The position numbers and the translations under genes are program-made. From IMG/VR virus record IMGVR_UViG_3300006139_000008: 64,000 bases of DNA; one strand, given 5' to 3'. The notes below the pieces were generated by a model. That model did not search any database, was not told where the DNA came from, and saw nothing but the letters and a program-made list of their open reading frames with translations. The DNA is from a virus (lineage: Duplodnaviria > Heunggongvirae > Uroviricota > Caudoviricetes). This document shows, piece after piece, positions 62,195-64,000 of this stretch (position 1 is the stretch's first letter; every line of letters starts with the position of its first letter).

Positions 62195-62926
62195 TTACGG
62201 ATGAAAACTTGGCATCAACTGTAATTTGAATAAATTTTTCTCATGCATTGTGTCAATTTTTTTCTTTACTTCTTCATCTTCAATCTCGCTAGTACAAATA
62301 TATTTATCCAATACATCATAAGTAAATCCAAGATTATCCTCATCTGTCTTTCCACAAAGTCCATCTGTAGGAGCCTTATCAATCAATTCATCTGGTAATC
62401 CTAAGACTCTTCCAATCTGTTTGATTTCTGTAACTGTCAAATTAGATAACGGACTAAAATCACCTGCCGCATCACCATATCGTGTGGAATACCCTACCCA
62501 ATCCTCAGATAAATTACATGTATTCGCAACTCTGCCATTCATACTCTGGCTAACTGCATATAAGGTTGACATTCTGATACGAGCAGGAAGATTAATAAGA
62601 GTCTGGTCGCTAATATCCATATTCTCTTTCATTGCATTAAGTACACCATTAACAGCATCTTCAATAGGAACTGTAACAAATTTAATACCAAGATTTCCAC
62701 ACAAGAAATACGAATAAGAAATATCGCTTTGCTCTCCATTTGGCATCAACACACCCATTACTCTGTCCTTGCCAAGTGCTTCTACACACAAAGCGGCTAC
62801 AATAGAACTATCCTTCCCACCTGAAATACCAACAATGGCATTACAACCTTTTCCATTTTCTTCAAAGAAATCTCTGATCCATTCCACACATTTATTTTTT
62901 ACTTCTATTGCATTAAAAACAGCCAT
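62195..62926 (-). CDS. nadE: NH3-dependent NAD+ synthetase (PP-loop ATP pyrophosphatase)
   Basis: PP-loop IVGISGGKDSS; YSTRYGDAAGDFSPL, KAPTDGL, NLGFTYDVLDKYI collinear with B. subtilis NadE. Confidence 0.85.
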   Translation of the reverse strand: MAVFNAIEVKNKCVEWIRDFFEENGKGCNAIVGISGGKDSSIVAALCVEALGKDRVMGVLMPNGEQSDISYSYFLCGNLGIKFVTVPIEDAVNGVLNAMKENMDISDQTLINLPARIRMSTLYAVSQSMNGRVANTCNLSEDWVGYSTRYGDAAGDFSPLSNLTVTEIKQIGRVLGLPDELIDKAPTDGLCGKTDEDNLGFTYDVLDKYICTSEIEDEEVKKKIDTMHEKNLFKLQLMPSFHP

Positions 62927-62929
62927 ATT

Positions 62930-64000
62930 TTACTTCTTACCTCCATATAATCTTTCACGAATATCTAAAAACGTATCTTCTCTTACAAGTTCTCCATTTT
63001 CAAATACTGCCTTCAGAAGCGTATTATCACTCATTTCAAGAAGTTCATCTCTACACATAAGTTCTCCATTCTTGCCATCATATACTTCACAGCATCCTTT
63101 ATGAGATTTCTTCAACTTGCTTGTATCCGTTTTAGGGTCTTTGTAAATCATTAACTTCTTTCCATTGATAACCCCGTATGTTGCTTTCATAGCAATGCCA
63201 AAAGTATCTCTTGTTGCTACAATGAGTTTTCCATTTTCAACGATTGCTGAGAAGCAAAAAGCACCAACACCATATGCAATGCAATTAGCAGAAAAACCTC
63301 TCTTTTCTAACTCAGACCAAATAGTATCTACATTTGATAAAGTACAACCATCCCCATAAATTATACCAATATGCGGATCGAGTACCTTATACCCCTTAGA
63401 ATTTACTGTTCCACCAAAAATCTCCCACAACTTTTTTACTGTCTTTACTGAAATATCTACAATATCTCCACTATCAGGACGAATTAGTAATTTACCATTA
63501 TGATTCATAACATCATCTTTTACTTGTGGAAGAATGTTATTTACCATATTCCAATAATCATATGTATCTGAAACCATGCTGAATGATGTATTTGGATAAA
63601 GTTCGTTCAAAAGACGCTTGACGAATGTTACCTCATCTCCATCAATGGAATAATTTGCTCCCATAACCGAGTGTTCCGTAGAAACTGCTCCAATACCCAA
63701 TCTGTTATTTTTGCAATCAGCACTATAATACTTGTCAATATAGTTGATTACCGGAATTGTTGATGTCTTATCAAAAGAAATCAACCAAGATGCAGAACAT
63801 CTTGTAGCTTCATCCATACATGACATTCCCCTCATTCCGAAGTCTGCACAAGCCATAGATGAAGGAATATTTTCTACCGTCTTCTCATACCACTTATCTG
63901 CAATCTGTCTATACATGTATCCGATAGTTGCATGACAACATGGTTTCCAAAGTTCTACCTGTAAAATACATTCAATCCACTGTACAAGCCACGCAAAATC
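62930..64000 (-). CDS. nadV: nicotinamide phosphoribosyltransferase (NAMPT/NadV), C-terminal two-thirds; 5-prime end beyond window
   Basis: LIRPDSGD and NSKGYKVL identical to NAMPT signature blocks; SMVSDTYDYWN block. Reading frame stays open upstream of the first Met (63916) to the window edge. Confidence 0.85.
   Translation of the reverse strand, partial: DFAWLVQWIECILQVELWKPCCHATIGYMYRQIADKWYEKTVENIPSSMACADFGMRGMSCMDEATRCSASWLISFDKTSTIPVINYIDKYYSADCKNNRLGIGAVSTEHSVMGANYSIDGDEVTFVKRLLNELYPNTSFSMVSDTYDYWNMVNNILPQVKDDVMNHNGKLLIRPDSGDIVDISVKTVKKLWEIFGGTVNSKGYKVLDPHIGIIYGDGCTLSNVDTIWSELEKRGFSANCIAYGVGAFCFSAIVENGKLIVATRDTFGIAMKATYGVINGKKLMIYKDPKTDTSKLKKSHKGCCEVYDGKNGELMCRDELLEMSDNTLLKAVFENGELVREDTFLDIRERLYGGKK

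What the first reader, a model, noticed from the sequence alone, without database searches (positions are those of the whole stretch)
62195..64000. Phage-encoded NadE plus NAMPT pair at the far end of the early operon: candidate NAD+ replenishment counter-defence module
Both genes are recognisable from invariant blocks: the PP-loop SGGKDSS for NadE, and IRPDSGD plus NSKGYKVL for NAMPT. Phage NAMPT is known from the NadV/NatV salvage pathways, and NAD+ reconstitution is an established way for phages to overcome NAD-depleting immunity such as Thoeris, DSR and SIR2-type effectors. Pairing NAMPT with an NadE-type amidotransferase rather than an NMN adenylyltransferase is unusual. It suggests either a nicotinate-route top-up (NaMN then NaAD then NAD, with the host supplying NadD) or an NMN-synthetase-type NadE as in Francisella. 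The window cuts the NAMPT gene, so further pathway genes may lie just beyond 64000.
Basis: partly seen in the sequence, partly recalled or inferred. Interest (0 to 1): 0.75.

Follow-up and report, generated by a model that had tools for sequence, protein, structure and literature searches.

The report
Nicotinate-route phage NAD rebuilding operon
The two genes are real, but they are the last two genes of a tightly packed four- to five-gene operon, common in gut Clostridia phages, that looks like an undescribed version of the phage NAD-rebuilding pathway NARP1, predicted to remake NAD+ from ADP-ribose and nicotinic acid rather than nicotinamide.

Summary
Both genes exist as described. NadE lies at 62195-62926(-). 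The C-terminal 356 codons of a NAMPT-family gene lie at 62930-64000(-). An identical contig (L001) extends the window and shows an intact 484-aa gene. Upstream of it, 3-18 nt apart, are a divergent PRPP-synthetase-like gene, a PncA-type nicotinamidase and a DHH phosphoesterase.

The "NAMPT" is closer to the crystallised NARP1 enzyme Namat (391 bits) than to human NAMPT (about 180 bits). The Prs-like protein matches canonical Adps (206 bits). Two residues that line the nicotinamide amide pocket are changed: Namat D215 (human D219) is Ser, and A242 is Ser.

Among 207 unique homologues with at least 4 kb of flanks, all 169 Ser/Ala/Val-type enzymes come from cassettes, and 167 have NadE, 166 PncA and 166 Adps nearby. 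None of the 38 Asp/Glu-type enzymes has NadE or PncA. Sister phages keep PncA and NadE but carry PncB+NadD in place of Adps+Namat. One natural Namat-NadE fusion exists.

Best reading, not tested biochemically: Nam→Na (PncA), ADPR→ADPR-PP (Adps), Na+ADPR-PP→NaAD (altered Namat), NaAD→NAD+ (NadE). I found no description of this in the searchable literature. It is a new variant of a known kind.

The parts
62195..62926 (-). nadE: single-domain, ammonia-type NAD+ synthetase, 243 aa, with PP-loop SGGKDSS. It is the last gene of the cassette. Predicted step: NaAD + ATP + NH3 -> NAD+.
   Evidence: PF02540 189.9 bits, TIGR00552 186.3 bits and phrog_11189 229 bits. Best solved relatives are P. horikoshii NadE 2E18 (138 bits), Francisella NadE* 3FIU (111 bits) and C. 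jejuni 3P52 (109 bits). NadE is found next to 167 of 169 Ser/Ala/Val-type Namat homologues and next to 0 of 38 Asp/Glu-type ones. It is fused to a Ser-type Namat in P0245.
62930..64000 (-). C-terminal 356 codons of a 484-aa Namat-like (NAMPT-family) transferase. The gene would start at window-equivalent position 64384 (L001 8543-9997). Predicted step: nicotinate + ADPR-PP -> NaAD + PPi. The upstream genes lie outside the window on the same strand. They are Adps-like (L001 7700-8524, window-equivalent 64403-65227), PncA-like nicotinamidase (L001 7109-7696, 65231-65818) and a DHH/DHHA1 phosphoesterase (L001 6199-7116, 65811-66728).
   Evidence: It scores 391.5 bits against SPbetaL1 Namat (PDB 9W5X/9W5W) and about 180 bits against human or rodent NAMPT. 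Catalytic residues D13, Y15, F189, R192, R306, D308, G360, D361, T398, R399 and D400 are kept. D215 is Ser, A242 is Ser and R40 is Met, and the adenine-clamp motif has a 9-aa insertion (GAFCFS-AIVENGKLI-VATRD).

Best explanation
NadE and the 'NAMPT' are the last two genes of a co-transcribed cassette, (DHH)-PncA-Adps-Namat*-NadE. I read it as a deamidated variant of NAD+ reconstitution pathway 1 (NARP1).

Proposed chemistry:
1. The PncA-type nicotinamidase converts nicotinamide, released when NAD+ is cleaved, to nicotinate.
2. The Adps homologue pyrophosphorylates ADP-ribose to ADPR-PP, using ATP.
3. The altered Namat homologue (Ser/Ala in place of the amide-binding Asp, Ser in place of Ala242) joins nicotinate to ADPR-PP to give nicotinate adenine dinucleotide (NaAD). 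This bypasses both NaMN and NadD.
4. NadE amidates NaAD to NAD+.

The cassette would then rebuild NAD+ from both cleavage products without any host enzyme, most plausibly to outrun NAD+-depleting defences of its Clostridia hosts.

Shown here: the gene identities, the residue changes, their strict genomic linkage, and the alternation with PncB+NadD. Inferred: the nicotinate and ADPR-PP specificities, NaAD as the intermediate, and the counter-defence role.
For: (a) Operon. In L001, which is 100% identical to the window, the five genes lie 3-18 nt apart or overlap by 8 nt.

(b) Namat branch. The protein scores 391 bits against crystallised SPbetaL1 Namat and about 180 bits against NAMPT. The clamp aromatics F392 and Y394(F) are kept, where human NAMPT has Gly.

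(c) Adps. The Prs-like protein scores 206 bits on a profile built only from Adps of canonical NARP1 loci, including the validated ICP1 and SPbetaL1 enzymes. It scores 87.6 bits on the Prs model TIGR01251, below the cut-off of 113. It is 34% identical over its full length to SPbetaL1 Adps. It lacks the C-terminal alpha11-12 module, which PMC13586617 calls a signature of Adps. K185 and the acceptor residues are kept, and the PP loop SYGGS resembles SPbetaL1 SFGGT rather than the PRPS DTAGT.

(d) Pyridine pocket. D215 hydrogen-bonds the nicotinamide amide and A242 lines the pocket (PMC12774641). D215A cuts NAD+ synthesis 8.1-fold. Human D219S switches substrate preference and D219A is inactive (Khan 2006, as tabulated in PMC4919578; also PMC7096376). 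Here the pair is Ser/Ser. Among the 150 representatives of 50%-identity clusters, the two positions co-vary: D/A in 96, A/S in 28, S/S in 19.

(e) Linkage. Counting unique proteins with at least 4 kb of flanks, Ser/Ala/Val-type enzymes (n=169) have NadE in 167, PncA-like in 166, Adps in 166 and all three in 163. Asp/Glu-type enzymes (n=38) have NadE in 0, PncA in 0 and Adps in 37 (earlier counts). All four genes persist through at least four different gene orders.

(f) Test of a prediction in a separate lineage. Metagenome loci L391-L396 have Ala215/Ser242 but an intact canonical clamp, GSYTYQYNTRD. All 6 have PncA immediately upstream, and 2 of the 4 with downstream sequence have NadE adjacent. 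None of 74 Asp/Glu-type loci in the same scan has either gene.

(g) Module displacement. Eighteen sister phage contigs, whose NadE is 67-76% identical to ours, carry PncA-PncB-NadD/NMNAT-NadE and never Adps+Namat. About 200 contigs carry PncA-Adps-Namat*-NadE and never PncB or NadD.

(h) Fusion. P0245 is an 865-aa fusion of a Ser-type Namat with NadE.

(i) PncA-like protein. Its best solved relatives are nicotinamidases. Catalytic D28, K114 and C146 and the metal ligands D66, H68 and H85 align.

(j) ADPR-related accessory genes occur inside sister cassettes: Macro (70 of 173), NADAR (34 of 173) and a flanking NrtR regulator.
Against: No biochemistry exists for any member, and nicotinate + ADPR-PP -> NaAD is a reaction nobody has reported.

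The adenine clamp is not canonical in the main clade. R40 is Met, Y396 is lost, and 9 or more residues are inserted into the SCH motif, so use of ADPR-PP is not assured.

The linkage counts are not independent events. Ser/Ala-type enzymes form one main clade plus two small groups in a neighbour-joining tree.

Two loci of the independent lineage (L392, L394) lack NadE within 7 and 3.8 kb.

NadE's second-best solved relative is the Francisella NMN synthetase, so NaAD specificity is inferred from context only.

The route costs one more ATP than canonical NARP1, and I have no tested reason why it would be favoured.

The PncA-like protein is far below the NCBIfam nicotinamidase cut-off (28 versus 174 bits).

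No NAD+-depleting defence of the host has been identified.
Confidence: 0.6

Rival explanations
1. PRPP-based Preiss-Handler booster. The Prs-like protein is a true PRPP synthetase and the NAMPT-family enzyme acts as a nicotinate phosphoribosyltransferase (Na + PRPP -> NaMN). Host NadD makes NaAD and phage NadE finishes the pathway.
For: The Ser/Ala substitution argues for nicotinate, but says nothing about which ribosyl donor is used. SPbetaL1 Namat itself retains PRPP activity in vitro (PMC12774641). The adenine clamp of the main clade is altered (R40M, insertion, Y396 lost). All acceptor-site residues kept in the Prs-like protein are also conserved in PRPS.
Against: The Prs-like protein scores 206 bits on a canonical-Adps profile and a sub-threshold 87.6 bits on the Prs model, and it lacks the PRPS C-terminal module. 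The pathway would be left incomplete, since no NadD occurs in about 200 cassettes. Yet sister phages that use PncB do bring their own NadD, so this phage lineage does not rely on host NadD. An independent Ala215/Ser242 lineage keeps the full ADPR-PP clamp consensus and is still linked to PncA.
Confidence: 0.18
2. Ordinary NARP1 plus unrelated helpers. Namat* still uses nicotinamide + ADPR-PP to make NAD+ directly. PncA and NadE merely boost the host's own Preiss-Handler flux in parallel.
For: The Adps+Namat pair alone is sufficient in characterised NARP1 systems. NARP1 operons are known to pick up extra genes, such as Adpp and RyDEP.
Against: The amide-binding Asp is never present when PncA and NadE are linked (0 of 169). 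D215A lowers the nicotinamide reaction 8-fold and human D219A is inactive. A co-expressed nicotinamidase would destroy Namat's own substrate. The Namat-NadE fusion and the swap with PncB+NadD are not expected under this reading.
Confidence: 0.08
3. Francisella-type route. NadE is an NMN synthetase (NaMN -> NMN) and a host NMNAT completes NAD+.
For: The short single-domain NadE has Francisella NadE* (3FIU) as its second-best solved relative, at 111 bits.
Against: The best solved relative is archaeal-type P. horikoshii NadE (138 bits). The related M. jannaschii enzyme is NaAD-specific with no NMN-synthetase activity (PMC3376133). No NMNAT or NadM partner is present, apart from NadR-like genes near 3 of about 200 cassettes. 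Deamidating nicotinamide only to re-amidate at the mononucleotide level gains nothing over a normal NAMPT.
Confidence: 0.05
4. This rival concerns purpose, not chemistry. The cassette is a general auxiliary metabolic module that raises NAD+ for phage replication in NAD-poor gut anaerobes, and is not a counter-defence.
For: No defence system or plaque phenotype is known for these phages. Gut jumbo phages carry NAD+ biosynthesis clusters, including pncB-nadD-nadE, that have been interpreted metabolically (PMC11662467). An NrtR-type NAD regulator flanks many copies.
Against: An Adps-based route needs free ADP-ribose, which accumulates mainly after NAD+ cleavage. Macro and NADAR genes for ADPR processing sit inside many sister cassettes, as in the anti-aRES NARP1-AP operon. 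Every tested NARP system counters NADase defences.
Confidence: 0.25

Closest known systems
NARP1 (Adps + Namat; Osterman et al. 2024; structures in PMC12774641 and PMC13586617)
   Same: A Prs-like gene sits directly upstream of a Nampt-like gene. The proteins score 391 bits against SPbetaL1 Namat and 206 bits against a canonical Adps profile. The catalytic core, K185, the truncated Adps C-terminus and clamp residue F392 are retained.
   Different: The amide-binding D215 is Ser/Ala, A242 is Ser and R40 is Met, and the SCH clamp has an insertion of 9 or more aa. The pair is near-obligately linked to PncA and NadE. The predicted substrate is nicotinate and the predicted product is NaAD, not NAD+.
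NARP1-AP (NARP1 with the Macro-domain ADPR-1''-phosphate phosphatase Adpp; bioRxiv 10.64898/2026.01.28.702374)
   Same: Both follow the principle of an extended NARP1 operon. A Macro-domain gene sits between Namat* and NadE in 70 of 173 sister cassettes.
   Different: The phage of this window has no Macro gene. It has a DHH/DHHA1 phosphoesterase of unknown substrate instead. The PncA and NadE extension is not part of NARP1-AP.
NARP2 / KVP40 NadV-NatV (Nampt + bifunctional Nmnat)
   Same: Both contain a NAMPT-family enzyme with the PF18127 and PF04095 domains.
   Different: No NMNAT is present. The nicotinamide-specifying Asp is absent, and the enzyme is much closer to Namat than to NAMPT.
Classical Preiss-Handler salvage (PncA-PncB-NadD-NadE), also found as phage clusters (L094 here; Kuafu_71 in PMC11662467)
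   Same: The first and last enzymes are the same (PncA and NadE), and intermediates are deamidated. NadE is 67-76% identical between the two cassette types.
   Different: PncB+NadD are replaced by Adps+Namat*. The adenylate would come from recycled ADP-ribose rather than from PRPP plus ATP.
Francisella NadE* NMN synthetase route
   Same: Both have a short single-domain NadE. The window's NadE scores 111 bits against 3FIU.
   Different: There is no NadM or NMNAT partner. The NadE is closer to P. horikoshii NadE. Its specificity has not been determined.

Membership tests
NadE (ammonia-dependent NAD+ synthetase) | PP-loop SGGxDS and a family profile score above the curated cut-off | tested here: met
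   SGGKDSS is present. PF02540 scores 189.9 bits (cut-off 21) and TIGR00552 scores 186.3 bits (cut-off 63.65).
NadE (ammonia-dependent NAD+ synthetase) | Single synthetase domain without a glutaminase domain | tested here: met
   The protein is 243 aa and the profile match covers residues 6-239. It scores only 128.9 bits on the two-domain model NF010588, whose cut-off is 479.
NadE (ammonia-dependent NAD+ synthetase) | Substrate is NaAD rather than NaMN | not testable with these tools
   The best solved relatives are 2E18 (138 bits) and the NMN synthetase 3FIU (111 bits). The paper that defines the specificity determinants (PMC2651253) is not held in the library.
NAMPT / NadV (nicotinamide phosphoribosyltransferase) | NAMPT_N plus NAPRTase domains, with the family model above its cut-off | tested here: met
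   PF18127 and PF04095 both match. NF006629 scores 449 bits (cut-off 405) on the full-length protein from L001.
NAMPT / NadV (nicotinamide phosphoribosyltransferase) | Asp (human D219) that recognises the nicotinamide amide | tested here: not met
   The residue is Ser in this protein (FDKTSTIP versus FTGTDTIP). It is Ser or Ala in all 138 close homologues.
NAMPT / NadV (nicotinamide phosphoribosyltransferase) | Works with an NMN adenylyltransferase partner (NARP2 or NadV-NatV context) | tested here: not met
   No NadD, NMNAT or NadM is in the cassette. A motif scan and a NadD profile found none in about 200 cassettes, apart from NadR-like ORFs near 3 of them.
Namat (NARP1 nicotinamide ADPR-transferase) | Encoded directly downstream of an Adps homologue | tested here: met
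   The Adps-like gene ends 18 nt upstream in L001. Adps is present in 166 of 169 Ser/Ala/Val-type loci.
Namat (NARP1 nicotinamide ADPR-transferase) | Closer to validated Namat than to Nampt, with the conserved catalytic core | tested here: met
   It scores 391 bits against 9W5X and about 180 bits against NAMPT. D13, Y15, F189, R192, R306, D308, G360, D361, T398, R399 and D400 are kept.
Namat (NARP1 nicotinamide ADPR-transferase) | SCH clamp consensus GSX-phi-X-phi-X-phi-TRD, with aromatics at positions 3 and 7 | tested here: not met
   The sequence is GAFCFS[AIVENGKLI]VATRD. Position 3 is Phe and position 5 is Phe, but a 9-aa insertion replaces the position-7 aromatic. A minor Ala215/Ser242 lineage (L391-L396) does meet the consensus.
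Namat (NARP1 nicotinamide ADPR-transferase) | SCL stacking residue (Arg, Lys or Tyr at the third loop position) | tested here: not met
   R40 is Met in this protein and in the Ser-type clade. Arg is kept in the Ala-type clade.
Namat (NARP1 nicotinamide ADPR-transferase) | Asp215 hydrogen bond to nicotinamide, meaning nicotinamide is the substrate | tested here: not met
   Position 215 is Ser and position 242 is Ser. For this reason I do not file the protein as a Namat in the strict sense. I treat it as a Namat-like enzyme with a changed pyridine pocket.
Adps (ADPR-PP synthetase) | PRPS-like fold lacking the C-terminal alpha11-alpha12 module | tested here: met
   The protein is 274 aa. Its alignment to B. 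subtilis PRPS ends at residue 287 of 317, with only 5 query residues left. The signature is as stated in PMC13586617.
Adps (ADPR-PP synthetase) | Nearer to validated Adps than to cellular Prs | tested here: met
   It scores 206 bits on a profile of Adps from Asp-type NARP1 loci, including ICP1 and SPbetaL1. It is 34% identical to SPbetaL1 Adps over its full length. TIGR01251 scores 87.6 bits, below the cut-off of 113.
Adps (ADPR-PP synthetase) | Catalytic Lys185 and a remodelled PP loop | tested here: met
   K185 is invariant. F18, R87, H121, D161, D212 and D213 are kept. The PP loop is DDIISYGGS, compared with SPbetaL1 DDLSSFGGT and PRPS DDIIDTAGT. Most of these residues are also conserved in PRPS, so this feature discriminates only weakly.
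Adps (ADPR-PP synthetase) | Pyrophosphorylates ADPR and not ribose-5-phosphate | not testable with these tools
   This needs an enzyme assay.
PncA nicotinamidase | Isochorismatase fold with the Asp-Lys-Cys triad and Asp-His-His metal site | tested here: met
   PF00857 scores 78.4 bits (cut-off 27). The top solved relatives are nicotinamidases (1ILW/1IM5, 3O90, 3PL1, 2H0R). D28, C146, D66, H68 and H85 align to P. horikoshii D10, C133, D52, H54 and H71. K114 aligns to the Lys of 5ZN8.
PncA nicotinamidase | Curated equivalog model above its cut-off | tested here: not met
   NF008623 scores 28 bits against a cut-off of 174, with only an N-terminal match. The protein is divergent and its activity is inferred.

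The most novel reading that the evidence does not exclude
These phages encode a previously unrecognised NAD+ reconstitution pathway, a 'deamido-NARP1'. Its key enzyme would be a nicotinate ADP-ribose transferase that makes NaAD directly from nicotinate and ADPR-PP. That reaction is absent from known NAD biochemistry and bypasses both NaMN and NadD. It is flanked by a phage nicotinamidase and a phage NAD+ synthetase. The cassette would have arisen by swapping PncB+NadD out of a phage Preiss-Handler cassette, or by the reverse swap. It is widespread in phages and prophages of gut Clostridia.
Probability: 0.55. Interest if true: 0.85.

Novelty: new variant of a known kind. Interest (0 to 1): 0.78.

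Why it matters
NAD+ depletion is one of the commonest bacterial anti-phage strategies. So far three phage rebuilding routes have been described: NARP1 (including NARP1-AP), NARP2 and NARP3. If the reading here is right, a fourth route exists.

It would add a new enzymatic reaction, nicotinate + ADPR-PP -> NaAD. It would also provide a natural two-residue specificity switch (D215/A242 to Ser-or-Ala/Ser) in the NAMPT/Namat fold.

It would show pathway modules being exchanged inside a fixed PncA...NadE frame. It would also bring the NAD arms race into gut Clostridia phages, which isolate-based collections hardly sample. NadE occurs in 44 of 50,697 isolate phage records, against hundreds of metagenomic loci.

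In practice, homology-based annotation would label these genes 'NAMPT + Prs', and I would expect NARP1-oriented tools to call them plain NARP1 (not tested). Either label would miss the difference.

All predictions are directly testable with four purified proteins and LC-MS.

Tried and rejected
- Megablast of window 60000-64000 against GenBank phages found nothing. Protein-level searches were needed.
- The first large protein search returned only close Ser-type relatives (at least 70% identity; 120 listed), so it gave no contrast set. I obtained the contrast set by scanning with SPbetaL1 Namat and with alignments.
- The PDB sequence copy holds Namat but no Adps chains, so Adps membership could not be scored against solved structures. 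I used ICP1 and SPbetaL1 Adps taken from phage records instead.
- The Sorci 2009 paper on NMN-synthetase determinants is not held, and a review gave no residues. The NaAD versus NaMN specificity of NadE is therefore left open.
- Close relatives of the Ser/Ala enzymes that lack the insertion (P0141, P0136) are absent from IMG/VR. They turned up only in the metagenome scan.
- One MAFFT run timed out and was repeated with faster settings.
- I considered and rejected a hidden NadD in the cassettes. A motif scan for (H/T)xGH and a NadD profile hit only the PncB-type loci, plus NadR-like or unrelated ORFs in 4 genome loci.
- I also considered the DHH gene as a core component and rejected it, since it lies near only 13 of 173 cassettes.
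- The 609-aa gene downstream of NadE is conserved next to it in only about 5 loci, so I do not count it as part of the cassette.
- I did not run structure prediction. The active site lies at a dimer interface and contains ligands, so a monomer model would not distinguish the rival explanations.
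Full report
**Observation**

The − strand of the window ends with two adjacent ORFs. The first is a 243-aa protein at 62195-62926 with the PP-loop SGGKDSS. The second is an open frame from 62930 to the window edge that holds IRPDSGD and NSKGYKVL.

The first ORF is an unambiguous single-domain NAD+ synthetase: PF02540 scores 189.9 bits and TIGR00552 scores 186.3 bits, against a cut-off of 63.65. 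The second is a NAMPT/NadV-family enzyme: PF04095, NF006629 and phrog_448 all match. The rest of the window is a tailed phage with an integrase, a replication module, NrdD and a ligase.

An exact-sequence look-up of NadE returned contig CASSNI010000015.1 (L001). It is 100% identical to window 56504-64000 and runs about 8.9 kb further. On L001 the NAMPT-family gene is intact at 484 aa and scores 449 bits on NF006629, against a cut-off of 405.

**What lies beyond the window**

Upstream on the same strand, separated by 3-18 nt or overlapping by 8 nt, are three more genes:
- a 274-aa divergent Prs homologue (phrog_619; TIGR01251 87.6 bits, below the cut-off of 113);
- a 195-aa isochorismatase-fold protein;
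- a 305-aa DHH/DHHA1 phosphoesterase.

A Prs-like gene followed by a Nampt-like gene is exactly the signature from which Osterman et al. discovered NARP1. In NARP1 the "Prs" is Adps (ADPR -> ADPR-PP) and the "Nampt" is Namat (nicotinamide + ADPR-PP -> NAD+).

**Which branch do the two proteins belong to?**

Against all PDB sequences, the 484-aa protein scores 391 bits on SPbetaL1 Namat (9W5X/9W5W) and 316 bits on 9KE8. It scores only about 180 bits on human and rodent NAMPT.

The Prs-like protein points the same way:
- It is 34% identical over its full length to the biochemically validated SPbetaL1 Adps.
- It scores 206 bits on a profile built only from Adps of canonical NARP1 loci, including ICP1 and SPbetaL1.
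- It lacks the PRPS C-terminal alpha11-12 module, which the Adps structure paper calls a family signature.
- It keeps K185 and the acceptor-site residues. Its PP loop (SYGGS) resembles SPbetaL1 (SFGGT) rather than PRPS (DTAGT). ICP1 numbering was verified against the paper.

So the pair belongs with NARP1, not with classical NAMPT plus Prs.

**The twist**

I aligned the protein to SPbetaL1 Namat, checking the numbering against PMC12774641. The catalytic core is intact, but the two residues that contact the carboxamide of nicotinamide are changed. D215, which hydrogen-bonds nicotinamide and corresponds to human D219, is Ser. A242 is also Ser.

Published mutagenesis bears directly on this:
- D215A lowers Namat's NAD+ synthesis 8.1-fold.
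- In human NAMPT, D219 defines substrate specificity. D219S switches substrate preference and D219A is inactive (Khan et al. 2006, as tabulated in PMC4919578 and described in PMC7096376). That the D219S switch is towards nicotinic acid is my recollection of Khan et al. 2006; the papers I could read say only that it switches substrate affinity.

In addition, the adenine-clamp motif GSFTYQYNTRD reads GAFCFS-AIVENGKLI-VATRD here, and R40 is Met.

**Comparative test**

I collected 470 loci from IMG/VR, GTDB genomes, GenBank phages and JGI/ENA metagenomes. Neighbours were scored with tblastn and then with profiles. Among unique Namat homologues with at least 4 kb on both sides:

| Type at position 215 | n | NadE | PncA-like | Adps | All three |
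|---|---|---|---|---|---|
| Ser/Ala/Val (always with Ser242) | 169 | 167 | 166 | 166 | 163 |
| Asp/Glu (always with Ala242) | 38 | 0 | 0 | 37 | 0 |

The four genes stay together through at least four different orders, with a median span of 4.1 kb. They also stay together at 42-59% protein identity, as in MT835544.1.

Among the 150 representatives of 50%-identity clusters, positions 215 and 242 co-vary almost perfectly: D/A in 96, A/S in 28, S/S in 19.

These counts are not independent events. In a neighbour-joining tree the Asp-type enzymes form one clade, and the Ser/Ala-type enzymes form one main clade plus two small groups.

**An independent check**

About ten cluster representatives have Ser/Ala215 and Ser242 but no clamp insertion, and most of these keep a canonical GSYTYQY(V/N)TRD-type motif. 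I predicted that they too should sit beside PncA and NadE.

A metagenome scan found six such loci, L391-L396. All six have the PncA-like gene immediately upstream. Adps is present wherever upstream sequence exists. NadE is adjacent in two of the four loci with downstream sequence. None of the 74 Asp/Glu-type loci from the same scan has either gene.

The PncA link therefore replicates in a lineage whose ADPR-PP clamp is intact. The NadE link replicates only partly.

**Two further lines of evidence**

First, 18 sister phage contigs found through NadE (67-76% identical to ours) carry PncA-(DUF)-PncB-NadD/NMNAT-NadE and never Adps+Namat. On NCBIfam, PncB scores 482 bits (cut-off 379) and the NadD-family protein scores 103 bits on TIGR00482. 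About 200 contigs carry PncA-Adps-Namat*-NadE and never PncB or NadD. Within one PncA...NadE frame, the middle module is either PncB+NadD (nicotinate -> NaMN -> NaAD) or Adps+Namat*. This argues that the two modules deliver the same thing.

Second, P0245 is an 865-aa natural fusion of a Ser-type Namat with NadE. It is a single metagenomic ORF, so the support it gives is modest.

**The other parts**

The isochorismatase-fold protein's best solved relatives are nicotinamidases. Its catalytic Asp, Lys and Cys and its Asp-His-His metal site all align. It is nevertheless far below NCBIfam's PncA cut-off.

NadE's best solved relatives are P. horikoshii NadE (138 bits), the Francisella NMN synthetase (111 bits) and C. 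jejuni NadE (109 bits). The related archaeal M. jannaschii enzyme is NaAD-specific. Even so, the specificity of the phage NadE cannot be read from sequence.

Accessory genes inside sister cassettes are ADPR-related:
- a Macro domain in 70 of 173 cassettes, comparable to Adpp of NARP1-AP;
- NADAR in 34 of 173;
- a HAD-like protein in 32 of 173;
- a flanking NrtR regulator.

The DHH gene of this phage is near only 13 of 173 cassettes.

**Mechanism proposed**

1. PncA: nicotinamide -> nicotinate.
2. Adps: ADPR + ATP -> ADPR-PP.
3. Namat*: nicotinate + ADPR-PP -> NaAD.
4. NadE: NaAD + ATP + NH3 -> NAD+.

This is the only reading in which the four conserved genes are both necessary and sufficient. 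It also explains why NadE is paired with a NAMPT-family gene without any adenylyltransferase. Steps 1 and 4 are standard activities of their families. Step 2 is supported by homology to validated enzymes. Step 3 is an inference, and it would be a new reaction.

I cannot say why a phage would pay an extra ATP for the deamidated route. Possible reasons, all untested:
- The host may salvage nicotinamide only through PncA, which would make nicotinate the standing pool. Gut bacteria are known to convert nicotinamide to nicotinate (own knowledge; compare PMC9981684).
- The cassette may descend from a phage Preiss-Handler cassette.
- NaAD may be protected from the defence NADase.

The counter-defence purpose is by analogy with NARP1, NARP2 and NARP3.

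**Host and spread**

The best genome match (95%) is a prophage region in Lachnospiraceae bacterium A4. Other matches are in Ruminococcus, Thomasclavelia, Pseudoruminococcus and many gut Clostridia MAGs.

In isolate-based GenBank phages, NadE occurs in 44 of 50,697 records, against 1,927 records with a NAMPT-family gene and 1,333 with a Prs-like gene. IMG/VR alone gave 213 relatives of Namat* and 390 relatives of NadE.

**Literature**

Full-text searches of the held PMC and bioRxiv library and targeted reading of the NARP1, NARP1-AP, NARP3, RyDEP, Namat-structure, Adps-structure and jumbo-phage NAD papers found no link between ADPR-PP or NARP1 and NadE, PncA, nicotinate or NaAD. As late as August 2026, the NARP3 paper lists only NARP1 and NARP2 as known enzymatic routes. 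The library omits most subscription journals, so prior description cannot be excluded.

**Verdict**

What is there is best described as a new variant of NARP1, widespread but unrecognised, with a specific and testable biochemical prediction.

Noticed in passing
L094 4041-7732 (also L087, L088, L095, L096, L121, L126, L132, L135-L137, L139, L142, L147, L151, L153, L156, L159): Eighteen related gut-phage contigs carry a complete Preiss-Handler set: PncA, a 188-aa DUF, PncB, a eukaryote-like NadD/NMNAT (GSFNPITNAH) and NadE. None of them has Adps or Namat.
   Followed up: yes
P0245 (865 aa; cluster representative): A single ORF fuses a Ser215/Ser242 Namat-like domain (residues 6-576) to a NadE domain (residues 612-835).
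   Followed up: partly
P0123, P0151, P0164, P0172, P0183, P0187 and other representatives: Many Namat-like proteins are 800-1100 aa long because of intein-like insertions. One insertion site is directly after the catalytic IRPD motif (IRPD|CYDDKT...).
   Followed up: no
L001 6199-7116 (window-equivalent 65811-66728, − strand): A DHH/DHHA1 phosphoesterase gene overlaps the start of the PncA-like gene by 8 nt. It is present near only 13 of 173 cassettes and its substrate is unknown. It may be an ADPR-derivative phosphoesterase, analogous to Adpp or RyDEP.
   Followed up: partly
Sister loci, e.g. L016 8449-8910 (Macro), L021 8907-9320 (NADAR), L114 6505-7008 (HAD-like), L289 11474-12430 (NrtR): Accessory genes lie inside or beside the cassette: a Macro domain (70 of 173), NADAR (34 of 173), a HAD-like protein with a DxDxT motif (32 of 173), and an NrtR-type Nudix plus winged-helix NAD regulator (32 loci, mostly bacterial genome loci).
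   Followed up: partly
L219 9432-10562, L270 11767-12789, L281 11871-12920: NadR-like ORFs (NMNAT plus ribosylnicotinamide kinase, the NARP3-type enzyme) lie about 0.6-1.6 kb downstream of the four-gene cassette in three genome loci.
   Followed up: no
window 60325-62154 (−): The 609-aa ORF directly downstream of NadE has only a weak HATPase_c_3 / sacsin-like ATP-binding N-terminus and no PHROG match. It is conserved beside NadE in about 5 loci only.
   Followed up: partly
window 26272-27492 (−); L216 (Lachnospiraceae bacterium A4, KE159538.1): A tyrosine integrase is present, and a 95%-identical Namat* lies in a cultured Lachnospiraceae genome. Together these indicate a temperate phage of gut Lachnospiraceae.
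   Followed up: partly
window 7104-14231 (+) and 16463-20767 (+): There is a 2375-aa ORF, not examined, and a 1434-aa tail-fibre or minor-tail protein. An HNH endonuclease gene (54527-55291, −) sits inside the replication module.
   Followed up: no
L392 and L394 (metagenome loci): These Ala215/Ser242 Namat-like genes have Adps and PncA but no NadE within 7 kb and 3.8 kb downstream. They are exceptions to the linkage.
   Followed up: no
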